64,000 nt of DNA from an uncultured Desulfobacterales bacterium (GTDB lineage: Bacteria > Myxococcota_A > UBA9160 > JAFDET01), in the NCBI GenBank assembly GCA_964194905.1, contig CAXMOD010000074.1, positions 3,940 through 67,939 on the forward strand, in the 5' to 3' direction. The notes under the pieces are model-generated. The model saw only the letters and a list, made by a program, of their open reading frames with translations. It ran no database searches and was not told the origin of the DNA. Below, in pieces: positions 16,417 through 33,571 of this stretch (positions are counted from its first letter, which is position 1; each line of letters starts with the position of its first letter). Made by a program: the position numbers and the translations under genes.

Positions 16417-16440
16417 TCGAGACCGATGACGTTCGAAGCG

Positions 16441-16480
16441 AAGGGCCCTCCGGAGTCATCCGGCGGGCCCTTTCGCGTTT
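16441..16480 (+). terminator. Hairpin terminator after the histone-fold gene
   Basis: 14-bp stem with one mismatch: AAGGGCCCTCCGGA (16441-16454), GTCA loop, TCCGGCGGGCCCTT (16459-16472). Followed by TTTCGCGTTT, a weak T tract. Confidence 0.55.
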
Positions 16481-16581
16481 CGGGCGAGATCTCCCGGATC
16501 GGCACTCTCGAATCGGCAGGTTTGGAGCAACTTCCGGCCGCTTTACTTCCACTTCCGGTCAGGACCATACTTCGAGGCCCC

Positions 16582-18015
16582 ATGAGCCTCCACGCCCGCC
16601 TGACCGAAGAGATCCGAGGCGGACCTTCGGGACCGAAGGTCGCGGCCCTCTTCGACCTGGACCAGACGCTTCTGGCCGGCTTCTCGGCCGTGTCCTTCTT
16701 CCAGGAGCGTCTCTTCTCCGGGCGCATGGCCCCGCGCGACATCGCCGACTCGCTGCTGGGCGGGCTCTCCTTCGCGGTCGGCCGCACCGGCTTCTCCGGC
16801 ATGATGTCGGCCACCACGGCGGCCTACCGGGGACTCGCGGAATCGGTGCTCGAGGAGATCGGCGAGGAGGTCTTCGAAAAGCACCTGGCCACGCAGATCT
16901 ACCCGGAGTCGCGCGCCCTGGTGCGAGCACACCAGGACATGGGCCACACCGTCGCGATCGTCTCCTCGGCCACGCCCTACCAGGCGCTACCGCTGGCGCG
17001 GGACATGGGCATCGAGCACGTGCTCTGCACCCGACTCGAGGTCAAGGACGGCATCTTCACGGGTGAAGTGCTGCGTCCCACGTGTTGGGGCGAGGGAAAG
17101 GCCGAGGCCGCGCGCGATCTCGCCGCGCGTCACGACCTCGACCTCGCCGAGAGCTGGTTCTACACCGACAGCCACGAGGACCTGCCGCTTCTCGAGAGCG
17201 TGGGGCGGCCGCGTCCGCTGAACCCGAACAGCCGGCTCGCGCAGATCGCCAAGGAGCGCCAGTGGCCGGTGCGTCGCTTCACCAGCCGCGGTCGTCCGGG
17301 CCTCGGCGACCTGATGCGCACCGGCATGGTCTACGCGAGCCTCGTGCCGTCGCTGTGGGCGAGCGCGGCGGCGGGCCTGGCGAGCGGCTCGCGGCGTGAG
17401 GCGACCAACGTATTCGCCTCGGTGTGGGGCGACCTCGCGACGTCGCTCGCCGGGATCGATCTGCGCGTCGACGGCGAGGAGCATCTCTGGGAGCGGCGGC
17501 CTGCGGTCTTCATCTTCAACCACCAGAGCGCTCTCGACGCGGTGCTGATGATCAAGCTGCTGCGCCGCGACCTGACCGGCGTCGGCAAGAAGGAAATCCA
17601 GCGCAACCCGATCTTCGGGCCACTGTTCACCGCTGCCGGAGTGGTCTTCGTGGACCGCGCCGACACCGGCAAGGCCATCGAGGCACTCAAACCCGCCGTC
17701 GACGCCCTGCGCGAGGGGCGCTCGCTCGTGATCGCGCCGGAGGGGACGCGTTCGCCGACGCCGCGCCTCGGCCGCTTCAAGAAGGGCGCGTTCCACATGG
17801 CGATGCAGGCGGGCGTGCCGATCGTCCCGGTGGTGTTCCGCAACGTGCTGGATGCACTGCCGAAGGACGCCATGGTCGTGCGGCCCGCCACGATCGAAGC
17901 GGTGGTGCTCCCGCCGGTCGAGACGACGGACTGGAGCGTCGAGCGCCTCGACGACGAGATCGAATCCATTCGCGCGCGCTACCTGGAGGTCCTCGGACAG
18001 CGCCAGGGCCTCTGA
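16582..18015 (+). CDS. HAD-IB hydrolase fused to 1-acyl-sn-glycerol-3-phosphate acyltransferase (PlsC-type)
   Basis: The ATG at 16582 is in frame with track ORF 16426..18015. The upstream codons are occupied by the terminator hairpin. HAD motif I FDLDQTLL. Acyltransferase motifs NHQSALD and IAPEGTRS. Confidence 0.85.
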   Translation: MSLHARLTEEIRGGPSGPKVAALFDLDQTLLAGFSAVSFFQERLFSGRMAPRDIADSLLGGLSFAVGRTGFSGMMSATTAAYRGLAESVLEEIGEEVFEKHLATQIYPESRALVRAHQDMGHTVAIVSSATPYQALPLARDMGIEHVLCTRLEVKDGIFTGEVLRPTCWGEGKAEAARDLAARHDLDLAESWFYTDSHEDLPLLESVGRPRPLNPNSRLAQIAKERQWPVRRFTSRGRPGLGDLMRTGMVYASLVPSLWASAAAGLASGSRREATNVFASVWGDLATSLAGIDLRVDGEEHLWERRPAVFIFNHQSALDAVLMIKLLRRDLTGVGKKEIQRNPIFGPLFTAAGVVFVDRADTGKAIEALKPAVDALREGRSLVIAPEGTRSPTPRLGRFKKGAFHMAMQAGVPIVPVVFRNVLDALPKDAMVVRPATIEAVVLPPVETTDWSVERLDDEIESIRARYLEVLGQRQGL

Positions 18016-18029
18016 AAGCGGGAGGAAGA

Positions 18030-19034
18030 ATGCAGCAGCTTCGCGTCTCCGTTCTGGGTGCCGGCTCCTTCGGTACGACCATGGCGCACCTCGCCACACG
18101 CAACGCACCCACCACATTGTGGTGCCGCCGCCCGGAAGTCGCCGACGAGATCAACGCGCAGCACACCCACGAGCGCTATCTCTCGGGCTACCCCTTGGCG
18201 CCCGAACTGCGCGCCACCACATCGCTGGAAGAGGCGGTGTCGGGGAGCGACGTCGTCGTGATGGGCGTGCCGTCCCACGGCATGCGCGAGGTGCTCTCCG
18301 GGGTGGCGCAGCACATCCGCCCCTGGGTCCCGATCGTGAGCCTGGCCAAGGGGCTCGAGCCCGGCACCCACCTGCGCATGACCGAGGTGATTCGCGAGGT
18401 GCTCCCCGAGCACCGCGCCGGCGTGATCACCGGTCCCAACCTGGCCAAGGAGATCATGGCCGGTTTCGCGGCGGCGAGTGTCGTGGCCTTCGACGAGTCG
18501 GACGTGGCGCGCCAGATCCAGAACGTCTTTCATTGCGGCGTCTTTCGCGTCTACACCAACCGCGACGTCGTGGGCTGCGAGCTGGGCGGCGCCCTCAAGA
18601 ACGTGATCGCCATCGCGACGGGCATGGGCGACGGGCTTGGCGTGGGCGACAACACGCGCTCGGCGGTGATCACCCGCGGACTCGCCGAGCTGATGCGCCT
18701 GGGCGTGGCCATGGGCGGCGAGCCCGCCACCTTCGCTGGGCTCGCGGGCATGGGCGACCTCATCGCCACTTGCACCAGTCGCCAGAGCCGCAACCGCCAC
18801 GTGGGCGAGGAGCTGGGCAAGGGCCGCACCATCGACGAGATCATCGCCGACATGAACCAGGTGGCGGAGGGCGTGAAGACCACGCGCGTGGTGATGGAGC
18901 TGGGCGCCAAGCACGGCGTGGACCTGCCGATCTCCCATGAGGTGCACGGCGTCCTCTACGAGGGGCGCACCGCCATCGATGCGTACCGCGGCCTCACCCG
19001 CCGCGTGCCCGGCGCCGAGCACGATCCCGACTGA
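18030..19034 (+). CDS. gpsA: NAD(P)H-dependent glycerol-3-phosphate dehydrogenase
   Basis: GGAGGA SD upstream of the ATG at 18030. Motifs VLGAGSFGTTMA, GPNLAKEI and GGALKNVIAIATG. 334 aa. Confidence 0.92.
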   Translation: MQQLRVSVLGAGSFGTTMAHLATRNAPTTLWCRRPEVADEINAQHTHERYLSGYPLAPELRATTSLEEAVSGSDVVVMGVPSHGMREVLSGVAQHIRPWVPIVSLAKGLEPGTHLRMTEVIREVLPEHRAGVITGPNLAKEIMAGFAAASVVAFDESDVARQIQNVFHCGVFRVYTNRDVVGCELGGALKNVIAIATGMGDGLGVGDNTRSAVITRGLAELMRLGVAMGGEPATFAGLAGMGDLIATCTSRQSRNRHVGEELGKGRTIDEIIADMNQVAEGVKTTRVVMELGAKHGVDLPISHEVHGVLYEGRTAIDAYRGLTRRVPGAEHDPD

Positions 19035-19047
19035 GCGTCCACTCCTC

Positions 19048-20709
19048 CTACTCGTCGAGGACGTGGAGCTCCAGGTGGGAAGGCTGGTCTGCGTCGTGGA
19101 AGAGGGTCTGGCGCGCGGGAGTGCCCTTCTCCGCAGTGGCGGGGTCCTCGCGCGTGTTGGGGTTGCGGTCGAAGCGCGGGAAGTTCGACGAAGAGATCTC
19201 GAGGCGCAGCCGGTGGCCGGCGGCCACGCGCGCCCCGGCGGCCCACAGGTCGATCTCCAGGCGCACGGGAACGTCGCGCTCGAGCCAGGTCGGCTCCTCG
19301 CCGCCCTCGCGCCAGCGGCAGCGCACGGCGCCCTCGGCCACGTTGATCGCCGTACCGTCGGGCGCCACGACCACGAGCTTGGCGGTGAAGTCCGTGTCCG
19401 GCGCGCTCGACGCCGCGTGGAGCACGCAGCGCAGCGGGCCCGCCACGAGCCTCGCGCGCATGCGGTTCGGGGGCTCGGTGAAGGTGAGCACGTCGGCGCG
19501 CGCTTCGACGCCGCGCTGGTCCACGGGACCACCGGGACCGATCAGCGCGCCGCCGCAGGTGGGAGCCGGGTCGTCGGGATCGTAGGTGAAGCGCGTCGGC
19601 TCTTCGGCGCCGGGCGGCTCCACGTCGAGCACGCCTCCGGCGCGCAGGTGGAGGCGCTCCACGCGCGCGTCGGGCGGCGGCCAGGCGCCGGCGTCGAGCC
19701 AGCGCTCCTCACCCCCCGCGCGGGCCACCGGGAGCAGGCGCACGGCAGGGGCCTCGCCTTCGTCTATGCCCAGCAGCTCGCGGTCGAGAAAGCGCAGCAT
19801 TTCGAGGACCGCAGCGCGCCCGAACCAGCGTGTGCGCGGCGACCAGGTGCGCTTCACGTAGCGCCCGTGGGACCAGGGCCCGAGCACCAGGCGTGTAGTG
19901 CCGGCGTCGGGGCTCGTCGCGAGCGCGGCGTGGTCGGCGAGCTGCGGACCGAGGAAGAAGTCCCACCAGCCGCCCACCAGAAGCGTCGCCGGTGCGCGGC
20001 TCACGTCGGGCCGGAAGGCCTGCCAGTACGCGTCGAGGCGCGGGTGGTCGAGCCAGTCCCGGTAGAAGTCGCGCCGGCGGATGGCGACCCGGTCTGCGGC
20101 GCGGATCGGGCGATGGCGCACGGCGCGCTCGAAGTCGATGCGCCGTTCCGGCAGCCCCTCGCGTTCACCGACCCCGGCCGCCCAGCGCAGCGCCGTCTCC
20201 AGCGAGAATGCGCCGCCGGGATAGAAGGCGTCATGGAGATTCGACGTGCCGATGCCGGCGGCGATCGCCTTCACCGGTTCCGGACAGGCCGCCTGGGCCG
20301 CCCATGCCGCGTAGGCCAGATAGGAGAACCCGACCAGGCCGACGCGACCGTCGCACCAACTCTGCTCCGCGGCCCAGGCTACGCAGCGCGCGCCGTCGGC
20401 GCCTTCGTTCACGAACGGGGTGAACGTCCCCTCGGAGGCGTAGCGGCCGCGCACGTCCTGCACTACCGCCGCGTGACCGGCTTCCGCAAAGACGCGTGCC
20501 AGCAGGAACATGGGCGTGGCCAGGCCGCGGGATCCGTAGGGCGTGCGCAGCAGCACGGCCGGCGCGCGCTCCACCCCGGTGGGACGCCACACCGTAGTCG
20601 CGAGGCGCACGCCGTCGGCCATCTCGACCCAGCGTGTATCCGTGGTGATGGAGCGGTGGCGCCGCGGCGGAAGGTCGAGCGCCCAGCGGAGGAGGCCCGA
20701 TGCGCTCAA
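19048..20709 (-). CDS. CocE/NonD-family (S15-like) alpha/beta hydrolase
   Basis: Motifs MADGVRLATTVWRP, RTPYGSRG and GFSYLAYAAW (nucleophile elbow), plus a C-terminal beta-domain. I propose the TTG start at 20709, forming a TTGA overlap with the upstream stop. The conservative alternative is the ATG at 20622. The remainder of track ORF 19048..21003 overlaps the upstream gene. Confidence 0.8.
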   Translation of the reverse strand: MSASGLLRWALDLPPRRHRSITTDTRWVEMADGVRLATTVWRPTGVERAPAVLLRTPYGSRGLATPMFLLARVFAEAGHAAVVQDVRGRYASEGTFTPFVNEGADGARCVAWAAEQSWCDGRVGLVGFSYLAYAAWAAQAACPEPVKAIAAGIGTSNLHDAFYPGGAFSLETALRWAAGVGEREGLPERRIDFERAVRHRPIRAADRVAIRRRDFYRDWLDHPRLDAYWQAFRPDVSRAPATLLVGGWWDFFLGPQLADHAALATSPDAGTTRLVLGPWSHGRYVKRTWSPRTRWFGRAAVLEMLRFLDRELLGIDEGEAPAVRLLPVARAGGEERWLDAGAWPPPDARVERLHLRAGGVLDVEPPGAEEPTRFTYDPDDPAPTCGGALIGPGGPVDQRGVEARADVLTFTEPPNRMRARLVAGPLRCVLHAASSAPDTDFTAKLVVVAPDGTAINVAEGAVRCRWREGGEEPTWLERDVPVRLEIDLWAAGARVAAGHRLRLEISSSNFPRFDRNPNTREDPATAEKGTPARQTLFHDADQPSHLELHVLDE

Positions 20710-21995
20710 GCGCGCAACGTTTCCGTTCGGATGTGGTACACGCGCAGTCCCGCCTGCACGTGGGTCCCCACCGCGAGGTAGGCGAGCACCGCTTCCACGT
20801 GACCCGTAGCGCCGGCGATGAGCGCGAGGAACAGGCGCCCGTCGCGGCCCAGCAGGAACCAGCGCGCGCGGCCCTCGCTCTCGTCGGCGTAGCGCCGCCG
20901 GAACTGGGTGCCGTACTTCTCCTTCACCAACATCGAGAGGCTGTTGCCCGCCATCGCGCCGAAGCCGAGCACGATGGCCGACGATCCGGCGCCGAGCGCC
21001 CACGCCCAGAGCGTCATCCCGCCGATCAGGAACGTCTCACCGACGCGGTCGAGGATGGCGTCGTAGAGCCCGCCGAAGGGCGAGTCCTGGTAGCGGATGT
21101 GGGCCACCTCGCCTTCCACACCGTCGATGACCGAGGCGCTCTGGGCCAGCAACCCACCCGTCAGCCCGTGCCCCATTGCGAAGGAGATGCCGGCACCCAT
21201 CGTGCCGAGGAACGACGCCACCGAGATCTGCCACGGCTTGACGTTGCGCGACACCAGGCGCTCGGTGATGCGCCGGGAGAGGGGACGGTTCAGGTGGCGC
21301 GCGACCATGCCGTCGGCAACGCCGACGGCGCCGGCGAGGATCTTGCGCCGGGCGAGGGGCACGTCCGCCTCGCAGCGCACCTCCTGCCACAGCTCGGCCA
21401 CGCTCCACGGCTTTACCGGCTCGCGCGCCGCCAGCGTGGTGAACGCCTGCGCCAGCGAGCGCTTCTCGGGGAGCTGCTCGTCGAGCACCCGGGCGAAGCC
21501 GGGCGTGACCAGCGCCAGCCCGGTGAGGACGGCGTCGGCGCCCACCAGGGACTCGGCGGCCATGCGCAGGGTCTCGCCGCCCGGCCAGAACGCCGCGCGC
21601 GCGGCGCCCTCGTGGGCGGCGAGCGCGTCCTCGCGCAGGTCCACCGCCACCCGTGCGCCCACCTCGGCGTGGGTTCCCTCGACGAAGCGTGCGATCAGGC
21701 GGCGGTCGAGGTGCGAGTCGGTCGCCGCGACGAAGACCGGCTCACCCGAGCCAAGGGCGCCCGACAGGTTCTCCACGGCGCGCACGCGCGCGCGTCGGCA
21801 GGGACCCTCGTGCAACAGCGCGTACACGCGCCGCGCTTCGTCGGGATCGCCGGTGACGAGAAACTCGCGGACGCCGGCGCGCAGGAACGCCAGGACGGTC
21901 CGCTCGACCGGCTGAAGTGTGAAGATGGGGGTGCGCTGGGCCGGTCCGGAGCCGGTCGCAAACAGGACGCAGCGTCGCCGGTCAGGCGTCTCCAT
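20706..21995 (-). CDS. Bifunctional IPCT/DIPPS-like protein: N-terminal nucleotidyltransferase-like domain fused to a membrane CDP-alcohol phosphatidyltransferase domain
   Basis: 429 aa. The C-terminal polytopic domain carries the CDP-alcohol transferase signature in the DIPPS-like form IDGVEGEVAH-x8-FGGLYDAILDR. The linker ADGMVARHLNRPLSRRI..KPWQISVASFL parallels archaeal IPCT/DIPPS. The N-terminal loop VLFATGSGPAQRTP is a divergent version of the GxGTRxxxxPK motif. Overlaps the MIPS gene by 14 nt. Confidence 0.75.
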   Translation of the reverse strand: METPDRRRCVLFATGSGPAQRTPIFTLQPVERTVLAFLRAGVREFLVTGDPDEARRVYALLHEGPCRRARVRAVENLSGALGSGEPVFVAATDSHLDRRLIARFVEGTHAEVGARVAVDLREDALAAHEGAARAAFWPGGETLRMAAESLVGADAVLTGLALVTPGFARVLDEQLPEKRSLAQAFTTLAAREPVKPWSVAELWQEVRCEADVPLARRKILAGAVGVADGMVARHLNRPLSRRITERLVSRNVKPWQISVASFLGTMGAGISFAMGHGLTGGLLAQSASVIDGVEGEVAHIRYQDSPFGGLYDAILDRVGETFLIGGMTLWAWALGAGSSAIVLGFGAMAGNSLSMLVKEKYGTQFRRRYADESEGRARWFLLGRDGRLFLALIAGATGHVEAVLAYLAVGTHVQAGLRVYHIRTETLRA

Positions 21996-23115
21996 CGGTG
22001 AGGAACTCTTCGATCCTCCGCGCAGCCTCCACGTCGTGCATCTGCACGGGCGGGTGCTTCATCGTGTACGCGGAGATCGGCAGCTGGGGTCCCGCGAGTC
22101 CGCGATCGCGGGCCAGCTTGATGTAGCGGATGATGTCGATCACGATGCCCGCCGAGTTGGGCGAGTCCTGCACGGACAGGCGCGCCTCCAGCTCGATCGG
22201 TGCTCCACCGAAGCCCTTGCCCTCGATGCGCAGGAAGCAGAGCTTGTTGTCCTTCTGCCACGGCACGTAGTCGCTGGGGCCGATGTGGACGTTGTCTGCT
22301 CCGATGTCGTAGGGGATCTGCGAGGTGACGGCCTCGGTCTTCGAGATCTTCTTCGACTTGAGGCGCTGGCGCTCCAGCATGTTGAGGAAGTCCGTGTTGC
22401 CGCCGGTGTTGAGCTGGTAGGTCCGCTCCACCTTCACGCCGCGGTCGGCGAAGAGCTTCACCGCCATGCGGTGCAGGATGGTGGCGCCCAGCTGGCTCTT
22501 GATGTCGTCGCCAGCGCAGGGAATGCCCGCTGCGCGGAAGCGCTCCCCCCACTGGGGGTCCGACACGATGAAGACCGGCACGCAGTTGACGAGCGAGACG
22601 CCCGTCGCGAGGCACGCTTCGGCGTAGCCCTGGACCGCCTTCTCCGAGCCGACCGGCAGGTAGGAGAGCAGGATGTCGGCGCCGGTCTCTTCCAGCACCT
22701 TGGCCACGTCCACCGGCTTCTCGTCCGAGGCGCGGAAGGCCTTGTCCGGCGGGTAGTCCGCCATATGGGCGGCGATCCCGTCGTGGATCGGCGCCATCTG
22801 GACCGCCACGTCGCTCTTCGCGACGGAATCTGCGATGACCGAGGTGCAGTTCGGAGCCGCGAAGGCCGCCTCGTGGATGGGCTTTCCGACCTTGCGCACG
22901 TCGATGTCGAACGCCGCTACCACCTCGACGTCGGCCGGCCGGTAGCCGCCCATGTCGAGATGCATCAAGCCCCAGGCTTCCTGGGCCTCGGCCGGCACGC
23001 CGCGGTAGTGGTCGATGCCTTGCAGCAGCGAGCTCGCACAGTTGCCCAGTCCGGCGATGGCAATGCGCACGCGGCGCTCGCCCCCGGTTCCCCCACCCGT
23101 GGTCTTGTTCGTCAT
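21982..23115 (-). CDS. ino1: myo-Inositol-1-phosphate (inositol-3-phosphate) synthase
   Basis: 377 aa. N-terminal VRIAIAGLGNCASSLLQGI plus full-length resemblance to bacterial/archaeal MIPS (GDDIKSQLGAT, NTGGNTDF). Confidence 0.92.
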   Translation of the reverse strand: MTNKTTGGGTGGERRVRIAIAGLGNCASSLLQGIDHYRGVPAEAQEAWGLMHLDMGGYRPADVEVVAAFDIDVRKVGKPIHEAAFAAPNCTSVIADSVAKSDVAVQMAPIHDGIAAHMADYPPDKAFRASDEKPVDVAKVLEETGADILLSYLPVGSEKAVQGYAEACLATGVSLVNCVPVFIVSDPQWGERFRAAGIPCAGDDIKSQLGATILHRMAVKLFADRGVKVERTYQLNTGGNTDFLNMLERQRLKSKKISKTEAVTSQIPYDIGADNVHIGPSDYVPWQKDNKLCFLRIEGKGFGGAPIELEARLSVQDSPNSAGIVIDIIRYIKLARDRGLAGPQLPISAYTMKHPPVQMHDVEAARRIEEFLTDGDA

Positions 23116-23158: not shown

Positions 23159-23174
23159 GTGACGGGCCCGTCAC
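23159..23174. repeat. Perfect 16-nt palindrome GTGACGGGCCCGTCAC
   Basis: Self-complementary over all 16 nt. Spans the stop codon of the 23171..24343 gene and lies 44 nt upstream of the MIPS start codon on the minus strand. Confidence 0.9.
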
Positions 23175-24343
23175 TCCGCCGCCGCGGACGTCTCCGCGGG
23201 CTCTTCCGGGGGGAGTTCCCCTCGAAGATTGGCGCCCACGCGGAAGAGTCGGGCCAGCGGCGTCCGGCGCAGAACCTCCGTTGGATCGAGGCCATGGGCC
23301 TCGGCCAGGTGCTCGAGCCCGCTGCTGGCGAGCTCCGCCGCTCGCTCGATGGCGCGGGGGCTGGACTCGGCGTCGCCCAGGGGCATGCGGTCGGCCACGG
23401 CCACCGAGTTCGAGAGACCCAGCAGGGCGTAGAGGAAGGTGCTGCGGCGGTCCGAGTCGAGCTCCGCAGCGGCCCGGAAGACCAGAAGGCGGGCATCCGG
23501 CGCCACCGGCAGCTCGGGCTGCAGGACCGGGAGACGCCCTGTCTCCGTGTCGAGCGCGTGGGCATCCGCGGGCAGGTCGCCGAGCTGCTCCGGGGGCAGG
23601 TGGGAGTAGAGGGCGAGCACGGCCTGGCTGCGCGGCGGGAAGCCGAGGTCCTCGAGGCGGCCATCGCGCCAGCGCTCCGCCCAGACCGCGGTCTCCTCGT
23701 CCAGTTCCCAGATGGCGCCCTGCATGAGCCGGAAGTAGAGCCAGTAGTCGCCGCTGAAGAGCGCGTGCATGAGCCGGGTGAGCGCGGCGACGTCGTCGCC
23801 CTCGTGGAGTGGCCGCCAGTAGAACTGGCCTTCGAGCGTCCGGCTTTGGGCAGGAGGCTGCCAGTCCTGGTCGTCGTTCGGCGGCTTCAGCCACACCTCG
23901 ATGCGCGAGCGCAGCTCGAGCACCAGGAGCTCCGCGTCGAGCGCCTGCGCGGCACGCAGCAAGGCGGGGTCCCCCGCCTCCGCCAGCACCTCGAGCCAGT
24001 TGCCCAGCGCGACGGTGTCGAGTGTGTCCGCATTCCACGCGTCCAGGTCCACCGCCGCCACGATCTGCTCCGGGGTGGCCAGCTCCAGGATCCAGGCGGC
24101 GTCCGAGACGCCGAGTTCCTTCACCGTGAAGCAGAGCTCCGCCTCGGGGAGCAGCGGGATCAGCTTCTCGGGCTCGCCGGCCAGGTCGAGCAGTTCGCGG
24201 CGCCGGTTGAGGGGCGAGCGGCAGATGAGTTCCACCTGGGCCTCGGGGGAGAGGTCCGAGAACGCGGCTCGGGCGGCAGGCTTGTCGCGCCGTGCCAGCC
24301 CGAGGATGCGCCGGGCTTCGGCCGGAAGCGTGGGGAGGGACAT
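23171..24343 (-). CDS. Conserved-looking hypothetical protein (acidic, helical; no family recognised)
   Basis: 390-aa ORF with saturated GC3. No TM segments and no motif I can assign. Confidence 0.75.
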   Translation of the reverse strand: MSLPTLPAEARRILGLARRDKPAARAAFSDLSPEAQVELICRSPLNRRRELLDLAGEPEKLIPLLPEAELCFTVKELGVSDAAWILELATPEQIVAAVDLDAWNADTLDTVALGNWLEVLAEAGDPALLRAAQALDAELLVLELRSRIEVWLKPPNDDQDWQPPAQSRTLEGQFYWRPLHEGDDVAALTRLMHALFSGDYWLYFRLMQGAIWELDEETAVWAERWRDGRLEDLGFPPRSQAVLALYSHLPPEQLGDLPADAHALDTETGRLPVLQPELPVAPDARLLVFRAAAELDSDRRSTFLYALLGLSNSVAVADRMPLGDAESSPRAIERAAELASSGLEHLAEAHGLDPTEVLRRTPLARLFRVGANLRGELPPEEPAETSAAAE

Positions 24344-24512
24344 GGGCCTGCGGAGGGTAACGGACGCAAGGACGCCGAGTGGTCGGGCGCCATCGGGCGC
24401 CGGGCGGGGTGGTATGCTGCTGCGCCCTCGGCGCTGGGGCCGGGGCGGGTCGAGCCGGGATCGGGCCAGGATCGAGCCAGGCTCGACCGGGGATCAGAGA
24501 GGAAGGAGAGCG

Positions 24513-25967
24513 ATGCGACGGCTGTGGAGCGCAGCGGCGGGAGTGCCGTTGGGAGTCCTGGCTGCGCTCGCTCTGGCGGGGGTGGGCGGGTCCGCTCCGG
24601 CGATCGGTGCGGTTGCCGGCGCCCTGCTGCTTCCGGCGCTGGTGTGGATCATCGGGCGTGGCGGTCGGGAGGCCGCGCTGGCGGCGACCGCCCAGGCGGG
24701 CTGGCTCGCGCTCCCTGCGGCGATCGCGGCTTGGCTCGGTCTGGCACCCGGCGCCGTGGTCCTGCTGGTCCTGGTGGGGGTGGTGGTGCTGGCCTCGCTC
24801 CTCCTCGGTTGGCGCGAGGGGCGTGGTCCCGCCGCGAGCGCCGCCGCGTTCCTGGTCGCAGGCTGCGTGGGGGTTCCGGCGCTGGCGGGGTTCCTGGCGG
24901 CGCGGGGGGCGGTGCAGCCTTCCTTCAGCGAGGGAACCGCCGCAGTCATCTACGGGGTGGACGCGCGAGTAGCGACGCGTGCGCTCCCGGCCTGCGGCGA
25001 AGGGCCCGCCCGCGTGGAGACGCTGCTCGAGCGCGGTGCGCATCCGAGTCTTTCGCAAGAGGGCGCGCAGCTCTGGTTCGACGCTCCGGCCGACGATCGC
25101 GACGGCGCGCGCCAGATCCACCGCCTCGATCTCGCGAGCCGCGCCGTCTTCTGCATCAGCTGCGGCGAGGCCGGCAACAACCGGCGCCCCGCTCCGAGCC
25201 CGACGGGCAGCGTCGTCGTCTTCGATACCGACCGCCATGCCGATCGCAGCGCGCCCGCCAATACGGAGATCCACCACCTGCGCGTGGTCTCCGGTATCGC
25301 GCCGCGCGGCTCCCGACGCCTGACCGCTTCGCCGGGGCGCGACGACCATCCCATCCTGGACCCGGGCGGACGCGGCGTGGTCTGGTCGCACGGCAGTGAC
25401 GGGCGCTTCGCGGTGGTTTCGGCGGGCTTCCGCACCGGCCACGGCGCGCTGCTTCTGGCCGATCCGTCTCCGATCCTTCCGGGCGGTGCAGCCTGGGCCG
25501 CTCCGGTCGCCTGGTCCCCGGACGCGCGTGGCCTGGCCTGGGTGCGCGGGAATCCGTTGGGTCCGATGTCGGGCAGCCGCCTCGATCCTGCCACCGCGCG
25601 GATCGACGAGTTGGGCGACGGCCTGGGCGCCGGTGCCGTGGCCTATTCCGCTGACGGAGGACGCGTGGTCGTCGCCAGCGCTGGCGGTGCTGCGGGCGCC
25701 GGGCGCCTGCCCGCGTTCCTGGGATTCGCGCTGGGCGTCCTGCCCGCCGCGTTCGAGCCCGCATCCACGGCCGCTCCCACGCGCTTGCGCACCGGGCCGG
25801 CTCGGCTCGCCCCGCTCCACGACGTGGATCTCGGCGAAGCAGCGGCCTGGGGAGCGCCGAGCGGTGTCGCGCTATCGCCCGACGGCACCTGGCTGGTGCT
25901 CGCTCAGCGAGACGCTTCTGGCCGCGAGCGCCTGCTTCGTGTGACACTGGATTGCGCCATCCCGTAG
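24513..25967 (+). CDS. Membrane protein with N-terminal TM bundle and C-terminal TolB/PD40-like beta-propeller repeats
   Basis: GGAAGGAGAG SD before the ATG at 24513, in frame with track ORF 23901..25967. 4-5 hydrophobic helices, followed by repeated SPDG/SADG-type blades (WSPDARGLAWV, YSADGGRVVVA, LSPDGTWLVLA). Confidence 0.75.
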   Translation: MRRLWSAAAGVPLGVLAALALAGVGGSAPAIGAVAGALLLPALVWIIGRGGREAALAATAQAGWLALPAAIAAWLGLAPGAVVLLVLVGVVVLASLLLGWREGRGPAASAAAFLVAGCVGVPALAGFLAARGAVQPSFSEGTAAVIYGVDARVATRALPACGEGPARVETLLERGAHPSLSQEGAQLWFDAPADDRDGARQIHRLDLASRAVFCISCGEAGNNRRPAPSPTGSVVVFDTDRHADRSAPANTEIHHLRVVSGIAPRGSRRLTASPGRDDHPILDPGGRGVVWSHGSDGRFAVVSAGFRTGHGALLLADPSPILPGGAAWAAPVAWSPDARGLAWVRGNPLGPMSGSRLDPATARIDELGDGLGAGAVAYSADGGRVVVASAGGAAGAGRLPAFLGFALGVLPAAFEPASTAAPTRLRTGPARLAPLHDVDLGEAAAWGAPSGVALSPDGTWLVLAQRDASGRERLLRVTLDCAIP

Positions 25968-31886: not shown

Positions 31887-32059
31887 GCGGTTCCCCCAGC
31901 CGGTCTTATCGGGCGGCAACTCGGGATCCTGAGGGCGCAGCTGGAATGCAACGGGCCGGCAGCTCCTTAGGCGAGGGGATTTGGCTACAGTCCGTGAGCC
32001 ATCAGATCGCTATCTTCCCGTCTTCCGCGGTGAAACGGTCTTCGGAGGGGAACTCGCCC

Positions 32060-32929
32060 TTGCACCACGGTCCCCGACGGGTGCTCCTGGCAGCACTGGT
32101 GCTGCTGGTGGCTGCGCCGGCCTCGGCGTTCTCGGAGCGCGCGCTCGACTTCGCGCCGCGCGTGCCCGCCGGCGATGCGCTGCAGTACGTGGCGCTGGCG
32201 GAAGTACTGCCGGCGACGCCGGCCGTCTCCGATCCCTATGCGGCGGACGCGGACCTCTACGCCGACGAGGAAGACTGGACCAACCCCGACCTCGCGGCGC
32301 CGGCGGAGCCCGATCCGTTCGAAGGGGCCAACCGACGGCTGCTCATGTTCAACAACGGTGTCGATCGCTTCCTGCTCGATCCGGCGTCGAAGGTTTACGG
32401 CTTCGTCATGCCGGACCCGGCGGAGCGTGCGCTGCTGCGCGCGTTCACGAACCTCAACTCGCCCGCAGTCTTCATAAACGACGTGTTCCAGCTCGAGTTC
32501 AAGCGCGCGGGCGTCACGCTCTCGCGCTTCGTCGTCAACTCCACCGTCGGAGTCGCGGGCCTGTTCGACGTGGCAGGGAAGCTGGGGATGGAGGGGCATA
32601 CCTCGGACTTCGGCCAGACGATGGCGCGTCTCGGCATCGGCAGCGGTCCGTACGTGGTGATCCCGCTACTCGGCCCGTCCACCGCGCGCGACGCCGTCGG
32701 CCTCGGCGTGGACCTCTTCTTCCGTCCCCTCTTCTATCTGATCGGGCCGTTCGAGTTCCTCATCGTCGGCACGAGCAACGGCTTCGTCGTCCGCTCGTCC
32801 TACGCAGACGAGATGGAGGCGCTTCGCGAAGGGTCGGTGGACTACTACGCGGCGCTGCGCAACGCGTACTTCCAGCGTCGCGCCGAGCAGCTCCGCGAGG
32901 TGGGCGTCGCGACACCCGGTGGCGACTAG
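32060..32929 (+). CDS. mlaA: MlaA/VacJ-family outer-membrane lipoprotein
   Basis: The TTG at 32060 lies 9 nt after GGAGGGG, in frame with track ORF 31946..32929. VacJ core: DPFEGANRRLLMFNN..NLNSPAVFINDVFQ..NSTVGVAGLFDVA..DFGQT...GPYVVIPLLGPST. Confidence 0.85.
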   Translation: MHHGPRRVLLAALVLLVAAPASAFSERALDFAPRVPAGDALQYVALAEVLPATPAVSDPYAADADLYADEEDWTNPDLAAPAEPDPFEGANRRLLMFNNGVDRFLLDPASKVYGFVMPDPAERALLRAFTNLNSPAVFINDVFQLEFKRAGVTLSRFVVNSTVGVAGLFDVAGKLGMEGHTSDFGQTMARLGIGSGPYVVIPLLGPSTARDAVGLGVDLFFRPLFYLIGPFEFLIVGTSNGFVVRSSYADEMEALREGSVDYYAALRNAYFQRRAEQLREVGVATPGGD

Positions 32930-33571
32930 CTAGCCCTCGCTGAGGTCGGTGATCTTCTTGTCGAGTGCCTCGACCAGGGCCGGGAAACCCTCGCGCCGCA
33001 GCATCGCCGAGTACTCGGAGCGGCGCATCGCCAGCTCGCTGATCGTCCCGTTCATGTAGACGTCGATGATCCGCCAGCCGTTCTCGGACGTCTGGTGCAG
33101 GCGGTAGTCGAGGGCCACGTCCTCGTCGTCCGGGCGAACGATCCGCGTGCGCACCAGCATGGTCTCGTGGACGCCCGGTTCGAAGCCCAGGGTCTCGAAC
33201 TCCTCACCCGTCCAACCGGTGAAGCGCCCGGCGTAGTTGGCCACCGTGAGTCCCCCGAAGAGATCGAGGAAGCGGGTCCGGTCTTCCTCGCTCAGCTCCT
33301 TCCAGTGGCGCCCCACCGACTTGCGCGCCATGAACCCCAGGTTGTAGGCGTTGTTCACGGCCGGCTCGAGTCTGTGCACCCGCCCGCTGTAACCGAGCGT
33401 CTCGGCGTTCTTCATGACATCGAGAAGCACCCCGTGCAGGCGCTCCACGCACGCGGCAGCTTCCATCGCGCCCCCGGCGACCGGGGTCACTTCGGCGGGG
33501 GCCTCTGAGATCGGCAGCGCGACGAACAGCACCAGCGGGAGGCACACCAAGAGCGCGCGGGCGGAAGCCAT
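32930..33571 (-). CDS. mlaC: MlaC/Ttg2D-family periplasmic phospholipid-binding protein
   Basis: 213 aa with a signal peptide. Family pattern FMARKSVGRHWKELSEEDRTRF..LFGGLTVANYAGRF.. and WRIIDVYMNGTISELAMRRSEY. Confidence 0.8.
   Translation of the reverse strand: MASARALLVCLPLVLFVALPISEAPAEVTPVAGGAMEAAACVERLHGVLLDVMKNAETLGYSGRVHRLEPAVNNAYNLGFMARKSVGRHWKELSEEDRTRFLDLFGGLTVANYAGRFTGWTGEEFETLGFEPGVHETMLVRTRIVRPDDEDVALDYRLHQTSENGWRIIDVYMNGTISELAMRRSEYSAMLRREGFPALVEALDKKITDLSEG

What the first reader, a model, noticed from the sequence alone, without database searches (positions are those of the whole stretch)
19048..23115. Translationally coupled inositol module: MIPS, then an IPCT/DIPPS-type fusion, then a CocE/NonD hydrolase
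- Three minus-strand genes overlap: 14 nt between MIPS and the fusion, and a TTGA stop/start between the fusion and the hydrolase.
- The middle protein resembles, over its whole length, the bifunctional CTP:inositol-1-phosphate cytidylyltransferase / di-myo-inositol-phosphate-phosphate synthase of hyperthermophiles. This comparison is from memory of the Archaeoglobus enzyme.
  - The linker RHLNRPLSRRI..KPWQISVASFL corresponds to RKINRKISTRI..NPNQMTLISFL.
  - The active site IDGVEGEVAH...GGLYDAILDR corresponds to LDGCDGEIAR...GGYVDSILDR.
- The N-terminal nucleotide-binding loop is divergent (GSGPAQRTP, no Lys).
- Two signature residues are substituted (D to E, R to H).
- The third gene is a serine alpha/beta hydrolase rather than the phosphatase expected for either DIP or phosphatidylinositol routes.
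- DIP synthesis is regarded as a (hyper)thermophile trait. A CDP-inositol route to inositol lipids has only been proposed for some Bacteroidetes.
- This cluster could therefore make a CDP-inositol-derived solute or lipid head-group with an undescribed tailoring step.
Basis: partly seen in the sequence, partly recalled or inferred. Interest (0 to 1): 0.7.

Follow-up and report, generated by a model that had tools for sequence, protein, structure and literature searches.

The report
Inositol-phosphate module with dead cytidylyltransferase half
An uncultured soil and sediment Myxococcota lineage pairs an inositol-phosphate synthase gene with a membrane enzyme built like the heat-lover enzyme that makes the solute di-inositol phosphate. 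The half that should activate inositol has lost its catalytic residues, and the neighbouring hydrolase is only an occasional neighbour.

Summary
Three minus-strand genes sit at 19048-23115: MIPS, a 429-aa fusion and a CocE/NonD hydrolase. They overlap by 14 nt and by TTGA, and the quoted motifs align residue-for-residue with Archaeoglobus IPCT/DIPPS.

- **Architecture.** The fusion is an IPCT/DIPPS-type protein. Its model matches 4mnd over the full length, and it groups with DIPPS and AF2299, not with PIP synthases.
- **N-terminal domain.** It belongs to a tight family from uncultured Myxococcota. Across that family the nucleotidyltransferase-fold domain has lost GxGxR, the PK lysine, D-x-G and W-x-D-x-D. 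These are conserved in 86 sequence relatives chosen for their intact GxGxR loop. This domain is most likely a pseudoenzyme.
- **D-to-E and R-to-H.** Both changes are private to this genome (1 of 68 members). The family motif is canonical.
- **CocE/NonD.** It follows the fusion in only 5 of 35 related loci. MscL follows in 13. MIPS is upstream in all 32 loci with upstream sequence.

Most likely function: MIPS supplies inositol-1-phosphate as acceptor for a six-helix CDP-alcohol phosphotransferase. The CDP-activated donor is made elsewhere, and the product is probably a polar inositol phosphodiester. The product is untested. I rate this a new variant of a known kind, of moderate interest.

The parts
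21982..23115 (-). myo-inositol-1-phosphate synthase (MIPS), 377 aa
   Evidence: Pfam Inos-1-P_synth at 124 bits. TIGR03450 scores 437 bits, below its equivalog cutoff of 638. It lies immediately upstream of the fusion in all 32 related loci that have upstream sequence.
20706..21995 (-). 429-aa fusion of a cytidylyltransferase-like domain and a DIPPS/AF2299-type CDP-alcohol phosphotransferase
   Evidence: PDB 4mnd at E 2e-18 with the single sequence and 5e-28 with the family profile. AF2299 at E 2e-16. The AlphaFold2 model has pLDDT 88 and its top Foldseek hit is 4mnd. More than 200 full-length homologues exist; all named hits and all 35 genome loci are uncultured MAGs, mostly labelled Myxococcota or Deltaproteobacteria.
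21321..21995 (-). N-terminal nucleotidyltransferase-fold domain (about residues 1-225), predicted to be catalytically dead
   Evidence: The fold is supported. No Pfam NTP_transferase or NTP_transf_3 hit. Only 10 of 68 family members give a weak NTP_transf_3 hit. Most conserved N-domain positions of 86 relatives with an intact GxGxR loop are changed or deleted, including all the catalytic-type ones.
21924..21965 (-). Degenerate glycine-rich loop (residues 11-24, LFATGSGPAQRTPI) in place of ILAAGxGxRL...PKPL
   Evidence: The loop is unconserved across the family, the Arg column is deleted, and the Lys is replaced.
20709..21320 (-). Juxtamembrane helix plus six-transmembrane-helix CDP-alcohol phosphotransferase domain (about residues 226-429)
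   Evidence: Helices from the model. The polar JM1 motif NRxxSxR is shared with DIPPS and AF2299. R317 after D4, R384/R387 and R418 are conserved.
21045..21125 (-). CDP-AP signature D291-G-V-E294-G-E-V-A-H299 ... G308-x3-D312-x3-D316-R317
   Evidence: The family consensus is DGVDGELAR...GGVYDALLDR.
21114..21116 (-). Codon GAA, giving the private D294E (D2 of the signature)
   Evidence: 66 of 68 family members have D, including the 90%-identical P0002.
21099..21101 (-). Codon CAC, giving the private R299H
   Evidence: 63 of 68 family members have R; the other five, this protein included, have H, L, A, Q or S.
19048..20709 (-). CocE/NonD (S15) serine hydrolase, 553 aa from the TTG start. Co-transcribed neighbour, probably not part of the inositol module.
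   Evidence: TIGR00976 at 334 bits. Rhodococcus CocE at 264 bits, with the Ser (GFSYLA), Asp (GGWWDFF), His (GPWSHG) and oxyanion Tyr (RTPY) aligned. It follows the fusion in only 5 of 35 loci.
23171..24343 (-). DUF6178 protein, 390 aa, 55 nt upstream of MIPS on the same strand. A frequent but not universal companion.
   Evidence: Pfam DUF6178 at 229 bits. Upstream of MIPS in about 25 loci. The all-helical model shows no enzyme fold.
21982..21995 (-). 14-nt overlap between MIPS and the fusion
   Evidence: An overlap or a gap under 70 nt is seen in all related loci.
20706..20709 (-). TTGA start/stop overlap between the fusion and the hydrolase

Best explanation
This is a conserved two-gene module of an uncultured Myxococcota lineage.

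1. MIPS converts glucose-6-phosphate to L-myo-inositol-1-phosphate. This follows from family membership.
2. The translationally coupled 429-aa membrane protein uses that inositol-1-phosphate as the soluble acceptor of its six-helix DIPPS/AF2299-type CDP-alcohol phosphotransferase domain. It forms a phosphodiester and releases CMP. This is inferred from conserved catalytic and inositol-phosphate-binding residues.
3. Its N-terminal half keeps the cytidylyltransferase fold but has lost the residues needed for nucleotidyl transfer. It most likely serves as a scaffold or ligand-binding domain, as in AF2299. The loss of residues is shown; the loss of activity is inferred.
4. The CDP-activated donor must therefore come from another enzyme. 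Because the juxtamembrane helix is polar like DIPPS and AF2299, and because MscL often follows the gene, I favour a polar donor: CDP-inositol or CDP-glycerol. The product would then be a phosphorylated inositol phosphodiester (DIPP- or GPIP-like) that a phosphatase turns into a compatible solute. This is the least certain step.
5. The CocE/NonD hydrolase is an active-looking serine hydrolase co-transcribed in this sub-clade only. It is more likely part of the surrounding peptidase and amidase neighbourhood than a tailoring enzyme.
6. The D294E and R299H changes are recent private mutations of this genome. They may lower activity.
For: **Architecture and fold:**

**Placement:** the family lies within the IPCT/DIPPS/AF2299 radiation and away from PIP synthases. 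NCBIfam gives DIPPS 110.6 bits, against 44.6 for archaetidylinositol-phosphate synthase and 43.5 for PIP synthase. The PDB profile search gives 101 and 83 bits against 31-38 bits. A neighbour-joining tree agrees.

**Dead N-domain:**
- No Pfam NTP-transferase hit.
- 86 relatives were selected for having GxGxR. Their conserved AAGxGxR, K, NG.S, M.DH, TK, GK, D.G.F and W.D.D positions are nearly all changed or deleted in 40 family members. Every conserved C-domain residue except N255W is retained.
- An HMM of the canonical fusions aligns to the window protein only from model position 25.

**No second IPCT-like ORF** lies in the 64-kb window or within 10 kb of the fusion in the related loci held.

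**Inositol-phosphate acceptor:**
- MIPS is upstream in 32 of 32 loci.
- R317 directly follows D4. The equivalent R94 of M. tuberculosis PgsA1 is critical and is conserved in inositol-phosphate-using CDP-APs (PMC6506517).
- The R384-D-G-R387 and R418 positions are conserved with DIPPS and AF2299.
- Six-helix CDP-APs use soluble acceptors (PMC4634129).

**Polar donor:** JM1 reads 'HLNRPLSRRITERL', against 'GLFAAIFLPIARLL' in RsPIPS. The NRxxSxR motif is shared with DIPPS and AF2299.

**Solute context:** MscL lies directly downstream in 13 loci.

**CocE is peripheral:**. Many other peptidase genes lie nearby.

**Private substitutions:**. The window protein is not a strong outlier overall, with 5 deviations at 147 conserved columns against a median of 2 and a maximum of 9.
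Against: - No biochemical data exist for any member.
- With the cytidylyltransferase half dead, and no IPCT or glycerol-phosphate cytidylyltransferase found nearby, the source of a polar CDP-alcohol is unexplained. CDP-diacylglycerol is available in any bacterium, which favours the lipid rival.
- The N-domain is strongly conserved within the family, with many invariant Arg, Asp and Glu residues. A non-canonical activity therefore cannot be excluded.
- The polarity argument for JM1 rests on sequence alignment, not on model coordinates.
- The MscL association is circumstantial and is absent from this window.
- No phosphatase is consistently linked to the module.
- The window enzyme carries D2-to-E in a metal-binding position and may be impaired.
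Confidence: 0.5

Rival explanations
1. Inositol phospholipid route. After losing the IPCT activity, the DIPPS-type domain switched its donor to CDP-diacylglycerol and now acts as a phosphatidylinositol-phosphate synthase. The product would be dephosphorylated to phosphatidylinositol and possibly passed on to ceramide.
For: - This is the most economical explanation for a dead cytidylyltransferase half, because CDP-diacylglycerol is ubiquitous.
- Six helices and the inositol-phosphate-type residues fit PIP synthases equally well (PMC4634129, PMC6506517).
- Myxococcus xanthus contains ceramide phosphoinositol (cited in PMC9246714).
- In this window only, gpsA and a HAD::PlsC acyltransferase lie next door.
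Against: - Sequence and structure are much closer to DIPPS and AF2299 than to PIP synthases.
- JM1 is charged where RsPIPS is hydrophobic.
- gpsA and PlsC are absent from all 35 related loci.
- MscL, not lipid genes, is the commonest downstream neighbour.
- No PIP phosphatase homologue was seen.
Confidence: 0.25
2. The protein is a fully bifunctional IPCT/DIPPS whose divergent N-domain still makes CDP-inositol. The CocE/NonD hydrolase performs a new tailoring step on a CDP-inositol-derived solute or lipid head group.
For: - Full-length structural match to 4mnd.
- JGI pipelines annotate many homologues as IPCT/DIPPS.
- The N-domain is under strong purifying selection within the family.
- The window's closest relatives keep G-x-G-x3-R remnants.
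- The fusion and hydrolase share a TTGA overlap.
Against: - Loss of GxGxR, the PK lysine, D-x-G and W-x-D-x-D across the family.
- No NTP-transferase HMM hit for the window protein.
- The hydrolase is present in only 5 of 35 loci and is replaced by MscL or other genes elsewhere.
- From my own knowledge, serine hydrolases of this family act on esters and amides, not phosphoesters.
Confidence: 0.1
3. In this particular genome the transferase is impaired or decaying. The two private changes in the metal and CDP-binding signature (D294E, R299H) mark loss of function, so the module here mainly supplies inositol phosphate through MIPS.
For: - Both changes are unique among 68 homologues, including a 90%-identical one.
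- GAA is a rare A-ending codon in a gene with GC3 of about 0.9, which fits a recent mutation.
- D2 coordinates catalytic metal in CDP-APs (PMC6506517).
Against: - The ORF is intact and tightly coupled to MIPS.
- D-to-E is conservative.
- The Arg position varies in five of the 68 aligned family members, this protein included.
- The protein has only 5 deviations at 147 conserved columns, within the family range.
- A consensus error in the metagenome assembly cannot be excluded.
Confidence: 0.1

Closest known systems
[quoted passage not shown]
   Same: - Same two-domain order: a nucleotidyltransferase fold, then JM1, then six transmembrane helices.
- Best sequence and structure match.
- Shared NRxxSxR JM1 motif, the D..DG..AR..G...D...DR signature and the RDxR motif.
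- Genetic linkage to MIPS, as in one relative with an intact N-domain that was checked.
   Different: - The N-domain lacks the cytidylyltransferase catalytic residues.
- It scores 110.6 bits against the 580-bit equivalog cutoff.
- PNQ is replaced by PWQ at the start of TM1.
- The hosts are uncultured MAGs labelled Myxococcota or Deltaproteobacteria, not known thermophiles.
Archaeoglobus fulgidus AF2299 (PDB 4o6m), a CDP-alcohol phosphotransferase with a cytidylyltransferase-like extramembrane domain
   Same: - A six-helix CDP-AP preceded by a 'cytidylyltransferase-like' cytosolic domain that is described only as a domain, not as an enzyme (PMC4634129).
- Second-best match.
- This is the best functional analogy for a non-catalytic N-domain.
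   Different: - The AF2299 domain is shorter.
- AF2299 binds CDP-glycerol in crystals, and its physiological role is unsettled.
- No MIPS linkage is known to me for AF2299.
Bacterial phosphatidylinositol-phosphate synthases (M. tuberculosis PgsA1, Renibacterium PIPS)
   Same: - Six-helix CDP-AP using inositol phosphate as acceptor.
- Arg after D4 and Arg residues in TM5 and TM6.
- Operates downstream of MIPS.
   Different: - Much weaker similarity: 31-38 bits, and 43.5 bits against a cutoff of 170.
- No N-terminal domain in the native enzymes.
- The JM1 is hydrophobic, to hold the acyl chains of CDP-diacylglycerol (PMC4634129).
Bacteroides vulgatus/Prevotella-type putative alternative inositol-lipid cluster (Heaver et al. 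2022, PMC9246714)
   Same: A MIPS-linked set of an NTP-transferase and a CDP-alcohol phosphatidyltransferase, proposed to work through CDP-inositol.
   Different: - There the NTP-transferase is a separate protein that the authors predict makes CDP-inositol.
- A HAD hydrolase is part of that cluster.
- The proposed acceptor is a lipid.
- Here the NTP-transferase is fused and degenerate, no HAD gene is conserved, and the enzyme has only the six helices typical of soluble-acceptor enzymes.
- I did not compare sequences directly, because no Bacteroides sequence was available.
Rhodococcus cocaine esterase CocE (CocE/NonD, peptidase S15 family)
   Same: The third gene aligns end to end at 264 bits. 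The Ser-Asp-His triad and the oxyanion Tyr are conserved.
   Different: The substrate is unknown, and linkage to the inositol genes is limited to one sub-clade.

Membership tests
Bifunctional IPCT/DIPPS | N-terminal domain with a nucleotidyltransferase (Rossmann-like) fold | tested here: met
   The AlphaFold2 model has pLDDT 88. Foldseek matches 4mnd over the full length and matches GalU and RmlA at E about 1e-8.
Bifunctional IPCT/DIPPS | Nucleotidyltransferase catalytic signature: GxGxR loop, downstream Lys, acidic metal ligands | tested here: not met
   86 relatives selected for GxGxR conserve AAGxGxR, K, D.G.F and W.D.D. The family has P/x, a deletion, A, L.G.A and W.E.R at those positions. 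No Pfam NTP_transferase or NTP_transf_3 hit for the window protein. Only 10 of 68 members give weak hits.
Bifunctional IPCT/DIPPS | C-terminal CDP-AP signature D1xxD2GxxAR...GxxxD3xxxD4 | tested here: inconclusive
   The family consensus is canonical. The window protein has D2-to-E and R-to-H; D1, G, A, G, D3 and D4 are intact.
Bifunctional IPCT/DIPPS | Six transmembrane helices plus a polar juxtamembrane helix (NRxxSxR) | tested here: met
   Model helices at 237-248, 254-273, 277-301, 310-336, 338-365, 384-397 and 400-428. Motif alignment.
Bifunctional IPCT/DIPPS | Score above the NCBIfam equivalog cutoff (NF041135) | tested here: not met
   110.6 bits against a cutoff of 580. The match covers residues 149-423 only.
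Bifunctional IPCT/DIPPS | Produces CDP-inositol and DIPP | not testable with these tools
   Needs enzyme assays or 31P-NMR.
AF2299-like CDP-AP with a non-catalytic cytidylyltransferase-like domain | Cytidylyltransferase-like cytosolic domain fused to a six-helix CDP-AP | tested here: met
   Foldseek hits to 4o6m, 4o6n and 4q7c with TMt 0.81-0.83. HMMER E 2e-16. Domain description from PMC4634129.
AF2299-like CDP-AP with a non-catalytic cytidylyltransferase-like domain | Use of CDP-glycerol as donor | not testable with these tools
   No ligand modelling or assay was possible.
Phosphatidylinositol-phosphate synthase (PgsA1/PIPS) | NCBIfam PIPSynth equivalog score | tested here: not met
   43.5 bits against a cutoff of 170. 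The BT1523-type model gives 22.3 bits against 350.
Phosphatidylinositol-phosphate synthase (PgsA1/PIPS) | Hydrophobic JM1/TM2 groove for the acyl chains of CDP-diacylglycerol | tested here: not met
   By sequence only: JM1 reads HLNRPLSRRITERL against GLFAAIFLPIARLL in RsPIPS. Model coordinates were not examined.
Phosphatidylinositol-phosphate synthase (PgsA1/PIPS) | Inositol-phosphate-binding basic residues: Arg after D4, plus Arg in TM5 and TM6 | tested here: met
   R317, R384/R387 and R418 are invariant in the family. Their roles are taken from PMC6506517 and PMC4634129. The TM5 and TM6 equivalences are inferred, not superposed.
CocE/NonD (S15) hydrolase | Family HMM above cutoff, plus the Ser-Asp-His triad | tested here: met
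   TIGR00976 at 334 bits against a cutoff of 66.3. The triad and oxyanion Tyr align to CocE.
   Present after the fusion in L003, L004, L015, L016 and L036 only. MscL follows in 13 loci, and other genes follow elsewhere.
myo-inositol-1-phosphate synthase | Pfam Inos-1-P_synth domain above cutoff | tested here: met
   124 bits against a cutoff of 27.

The most novel reading that the evidence does not exclude
A widespread, non-thermophilic Myxococcota lineage makes an inositol phosphodiester with a DIPPS-type enzyme whose built-in cytidylyltransferase has become a pseudoenzyme. The product could be a DIP- or glycerophosphoinositol-like compatible solute, or a new inositol head group. This would imply either an unrecognised trans-acting CDP-inositol or CDP-alcohol supplier, or a donor switch within the DIPPS clade. 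It would also extend DIP-type osmolytes, with MscL as the release valve, to soil and sediment bacteria.
Probability: 0.3. Interest if true: 0.65.

Novelty: new variant of a known kind. Interest (0 to 1): 0.45.

Why it matters
DIP-type solutes and their IPCT/DIPPS genes are treated as markers of life at high temperature. Bacterial inositol metabolism outside Actinobacteria and Bacteroidetes is poorly charted.

Here a large family from uncultured MAGs labelled Myxococcota or Deltaproteobacteria, some from sand and soil samples, keeps MIPS welded to a DIPPS-type transferase while letting the cytidylyltransferase half decay.

If the product is a solute, this would be a new osmoadaptation route in these bacteria. 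If it is a lipid, it would show a DIPPS-clade enzyme re-tooled as a PIP synthase, and could bear on how Myxococcota obtain inositol lipids.

The case also warns that automated 'IPCT/DIPPS' annotations of these proteins over-call the first activity. It provides a natural example of a pseudoenzyme domain kept as a scaffold on a membrane transferase.

Tried and rejected
- **DUF6178 as the missing cytidylyltransferase.** I predicted its structure (pLDDT 91). It is all-helical, with only local similarity to the MgtE N-domain and no enzyme fold, so I rejected the idea.
- **A separate IPCT-like gene.** I searched all six-frame ORFs of the window and of 37 loci with an HMM of canonical fusions. None was found. 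TagD-type cytidylyltransferases would not be detected this way. Pfam scans of 46 window proteins showed no cytidylyltransferase, but my gene calls left some stretches unscanned.
- **Pseudogenisation of the window copy.** I counted deviations at conserved columns. The window protein is not an outlier.
- **gpsA and HAD::PlsC as part of the module.** They are absent from all related loci, so I rejected this.
- **Exact-match look-up of the window protein's contig.** It returned nothing.
- **Primary papers.** The structural papers on IPCT, DIPPS and AF2299 (Brito 2011, Nogly 2014, Sciara 2014) are not held in the library. The residue roles for the nucleotidyltransferase signature therefore rest on general knowledge of the fold and on the conservation pattern in 86 relatives.
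- **Apparent absence of MIPS in L031 and L035.** This turned out to be frameshifted assemblies.
- **The neighbour-joining tree.** It uses 96 columns and has no bootstrap, so it is indicative only.

Full report
**Observation**

The window has about 71% G+C. Three minus-strand ORFs occupy 19048-23115:
- a 377-aa MIPS at 21982-23115;
- a 429-aa protein at 20706-21995;
- a hydrolase whose ORF runs 19048-21003.

The fusion ATG at 21995 lies 14 nt inside the end of MIPS, whose TGA is at 21982-21984. At 20709-20706 the sequence reads TTGA, so a TTG start for the hydrolase overlaps the fusion stop.

Pfam and NCBIfam give these assignments:
- Inos-1-P_synth, 124 bits, for MIPS;
- CDP-OH_P_transf, 21.8 bits against a gathering score of 22, for the fusion, with no nucleotidyltransferase family;
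- Peptidase_S15, PepX_C and TIGR00976 CocE_NonD (334 bits) for the hydrolase.

It also pairs 'idgvegevah..gglydaildr' with 'LDGCDGEIAR..GGYVDSILDR' of A. fulgidus IPCT/DIPPS (4mnd, E 2e-18). AF2299 is the next hit at E 2e-16.

**What the middle protein is**

An AlphaFold2 model built on 68 homologues has pLDDT 88 and pTM 0.80. It shows an alpha/beta N-terminal domain (residues 1 to about 225), a juxtamembrane helix and six transmembrane helices.

Foldseek against the PDB ranks 4mnd first (E 4e-18, 439 aligned columns, TM 0.66/0.68), then AF2299, then the engineered PIP synthases. The N-domain on its own also hits GalU and RmlA nucleotidyltransferases.

Three comparisons place the C-domain with DIPPS and AF2299 rather than with PIP or PGP synthases:
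- NCBIfam gives the DIPPS model 110.6 bits, archaetidylinositol-phosphate synthase 44.6 and PIP synthase 43.5. All are far below their equivalog cutoffs.
- A family profile scores 101 bits on 4mnd and 83 on AF2299, against 31-38 on PIP synthases.
- A rough neighbour-joining tree puts the family inside the fusion-protein radiation that holds AfDIPPS and AF2299, with PIP synthases outside.

**The family**

More than 200 full-length homologues at 55-90% identity exist. All named hits, and all 35 loci found in one-genome-per-species contigs, are uncultured MAGs, mostly labelled Myxococcota or Deltaproteobacteria.

At 50% clustering the family collapses to a single representative (745 bits). The next relatives score 250 bits or less. 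139 representatives have E < 1e-30 and 4775 have E < 1e-3.

Most of those relatives start with the canonical nucleotidyltransferase signature ([IVL]LAAGxGxRL...PKPL). One of them, P0124, has Pfam NTP_transferase, NTP_transf_3 and CDP-OH_P_transf. It sits directly after a MIPS gene and a PHP-domain phosphoesterase. The Myxococcota family is thus an offshoot of a broader, largely uncharacterised bacterial set of IPCT/DIPPS-like fusions; the one canonical relative whose context was checked is MIPS-linked.

**The N-domain is degenerate**

I compared 86 canonical relatives with 40 family members column by column. The table lists the conserved N-domain positions of the canonical set and what the family has there.

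| Canonical relatives | Myxococcota family |
|---|---|
| A-A-G-x-G-x-R | A-P-x-x-x, with the Arg column deleted |
| Lys of PKxL | Ala |
| N..W...NG.S block | deleted |
| M.DH | R.D[Y] |
| TK | PR |
| GK | variable |
| D.G.F | L.G.A |
| W.D.D | W.E.R |

From general knowledge of this fold, the glycine-rich loop Arg, the downstream Lys and the acidic metal ligands are the catalytic core. Further points agree with this:
- An HMM of the canonical fusions aligns to the window protein only from model position 25 onward.
- Pfam finds no NTP-transferase family in the window protein. It gives weak NTP_transf_3 hits in only 10 of 68 members, while all 68 hit CDP-OH_P_transf.
- Every conserved C-domain residue of the canonical set is kept in the family, except an invariant PNQ-to-PWQ change at the start of TM1.

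I conclude that the cytidylyltransferase half is a pseudoenzyme. The loss of residues is shown; the loss of activity is inferred. The N-domain is nevertheless strongly conserved within the family, with E31, R32, T33, R39, G41, D93, R98, D119, G159, R191, E192 and W203 invariant or nearly so. It must therefore keep a structural or ligand-binding role. The analogy is the 'cytidylyltransferase-like' domain of AF2299 that packs on the membrane domain (PMC4634129). Relatives with degenerate loops are scattered through the tree, so this loss has happened repeatedly.

**The two substituted signature residues**

The family consensus is fully canonical: DGVDGELAR...GGVYDALLDR. D294E and R299H occur in 1 of 68 sequences, the window protein. 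Even the 90%-identical P0002 has D and R.

The codons are GAA (21114-21116) and CAC (21099-21101), each a single-base change from the common GAC and CGC codons. The Arg position also varies in four other members.

The window protein deviates at 5 of 147 highly conserved columns, against a median of 2 and a maximum of 9. It is not obviously decaying. These are private mutations or consensus errors of this genome, not a trait that defines a new enzyme type.

**Gene context**

A tblastn survey of 37 loci gave the following picture.
- **MIPS** is immediately upstream of the fusion in all 32 loci with upstream sequence. In two long-read MAGs it is fragmented by frameshifts. It overlaps the fusion or lies less than 70 nt away.
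- **DUF6178** precedes MIPS in about 25 loci.
- **The downstream slot is variable.** CocE/NonD follows in 5 loci, all among the window's nearer relatives. MscL follows in 13 loci. MFS transporters and other genes follow elsewhere.
- **An amidase** recurs 0.5-6 kb further on.
- **gpsA and the HAD::PlsC fusion**, which abut CocE in the window, are found in none of the other loci.

The CocE homologue looks active. It scores 264 bits to Rhodococcus CocE, with the Ser, Asp and His of the triad and the oxyanion Tyr all aligned.

The window is full of peptidase and amidase genes: M28, amidase, S33, S15, M19, GGT, M10-like and M20. The simplest reading is that CocE belongs to that neighbourhood and has been captured into the transcription unit in one sub-clade.

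**Mechanism**

The acceptor is very likely inositol-1-phosphate, for four reasons:
- MIPS coupling is universal.
- Six-helix CDP-APs take soluble acceptors (PMC4634129).
- The Arg that follows D4 (R317) is invariant. Its equivalent, R94 in M. tuberculosis PgsA1, is critical and typical of enzymes that use inositol phosphate (PMC6506517).
- RDGR (384-387) and R418 are conserved with DIPPS and AF2299.

The donor is the open question. No IPCT-like ORF lies in the window or within 10 kb of the fusion in any locus. DUF6178 is an all-helical protein without an enzyme fold.

Two lines favour a polar CDP-alcohol, and hence a DIPP- or GPIP-like solute precursor:
- JM1 is charged (HLNRPLSRRITERL) and shares NRxxSxR with DIPPS and AF2299. 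The corresponding RsPIPS segment, which lines the acyl-chain groove, is hydrophobic (GLFAAIFLPIARLL) (PMC4634129).
- A mechanosensitive channel gene is the most frequent downstream neighbour.

One strong argument favours CDP-diacylglycerol and an inositol lipid. A ubiquitous donor would explain why the cytidylyltransferase could decay. In addition, Myxococcus is reported to contain ceramide phosphoinositol (PMC9246714). I put the polar-product model at about 0.5 and the lipid model at about 0.25.

**Comparison with known systems and novelty**

The protein works like, and descends from, IPCT/DIPPS. It fails the membership test for the bifunctional enzyme, because the catalytic signature of the first domain is not met and it scores far below the equivalog cutoff. 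In domain logic it is closest to AF2299.

It differs from the Bacteroides vulgatus-type alternative cluster, which has a separate NTP-transferase that its authors predict makes CDP-inositol, a HAD hydrolase and a proposed lipid acceptor (PMC9246714).

IPCT/DIPPS genes outside thermophiles have been noted before, in hadal Thaumarchaeota (PMC7265257). My literature searches found no description of this Myxococcota family or of its degenerate N-domain. I rate it a new variant of a known kind, of moderate interest (0.45). The finding as written over-states the role of the hydrolase and mis-assigns the signature substitutions, but the underlying module is real, conserved and biochemically unresolved.

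Noticed in passing
L001, L018-L027, L029 and L031 (for example L018:11330-11716); absent from the window: A large-conductance mechanosensitive channel gene (mscL) lies directly downstream of the fusion, on the same strand, in 13 related loci. It is the commonest neighbour and hints at an osmolyte role.
   Followed up: partly
window 16426-19034 (+): A HAD-IB phosphatase fused to a PlsC-type acyltransferase (16426-18015) and gpsA (18012-19034) are wedged convergently against CocE. This occurs only in this genome. Related loci go straight from CocE to the abhydrolase and amidase genes.
   Followed up: partly
window 23171-24343 (-): DUF6178 is a frequent upstream partner of MIPS. Its model (pLDDT 91) is all-helical. 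It shows only local similarity to the cytosolic N-domain of the MgtE Mg2+ channel, and its function is unknown.
   Followed up: yes
window 24402-25967 (+): A protein of about 521 aa has hydrophobic N-terminal segments and no Pfam match. It is conserved divergently upstream of DUF6178 in most related loci.
   Followed up: no
L038:3860-7353: A canonical relative (P0124) shows a PHP-domain phosphoesterase, then MIPS, then an intact NTP_transferase::CDP-OH_P_transf fusion. This may be a complete DIP-type operon in an uncultured bacterium.
   Followed up: no
L031:7600-11200 and L035:8900-11300: MIPS, DUF6178 and the fusion are split over several reading frames in two 'MFD' MAGs. These are most likely indel errors of the assemblies rather than pseudogenes.
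   Followed up: partly
window residue 255 of the fusion (codon 21231-21233): The PNQ motif at the start of TM1 has Asn in 81% of canonical relatives, and in DIPPS and AF2299. It is invariantly PWQ in the Myxococcota family. This could mark a change in the nucleotide or donor site.
   Followed up: no
window 10273-35931: There is an unusual density of peptidase and amidase genes: M28 with PDZ, amidase, S33 hydrolase, S15 CocE, M19 dipeptidase, gamma-glutamyltranspeptidase, an M10-like protein and M20. MlaA and MlaC lipid-transport genes lie at 31946-33571.
   Followed up: no
P0131, P0137, P0154, P0167, P0172, P0188, P0248 and P0269 (relatives outside the family): Other lineages of the fusion radiation also lack the GxGxR loop and are scattered in the tree. 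P0137 has no MIPS nearby. Loss of the cytidylyltransferase signature seems to have occurred repeatedly.
   Followed up: partly
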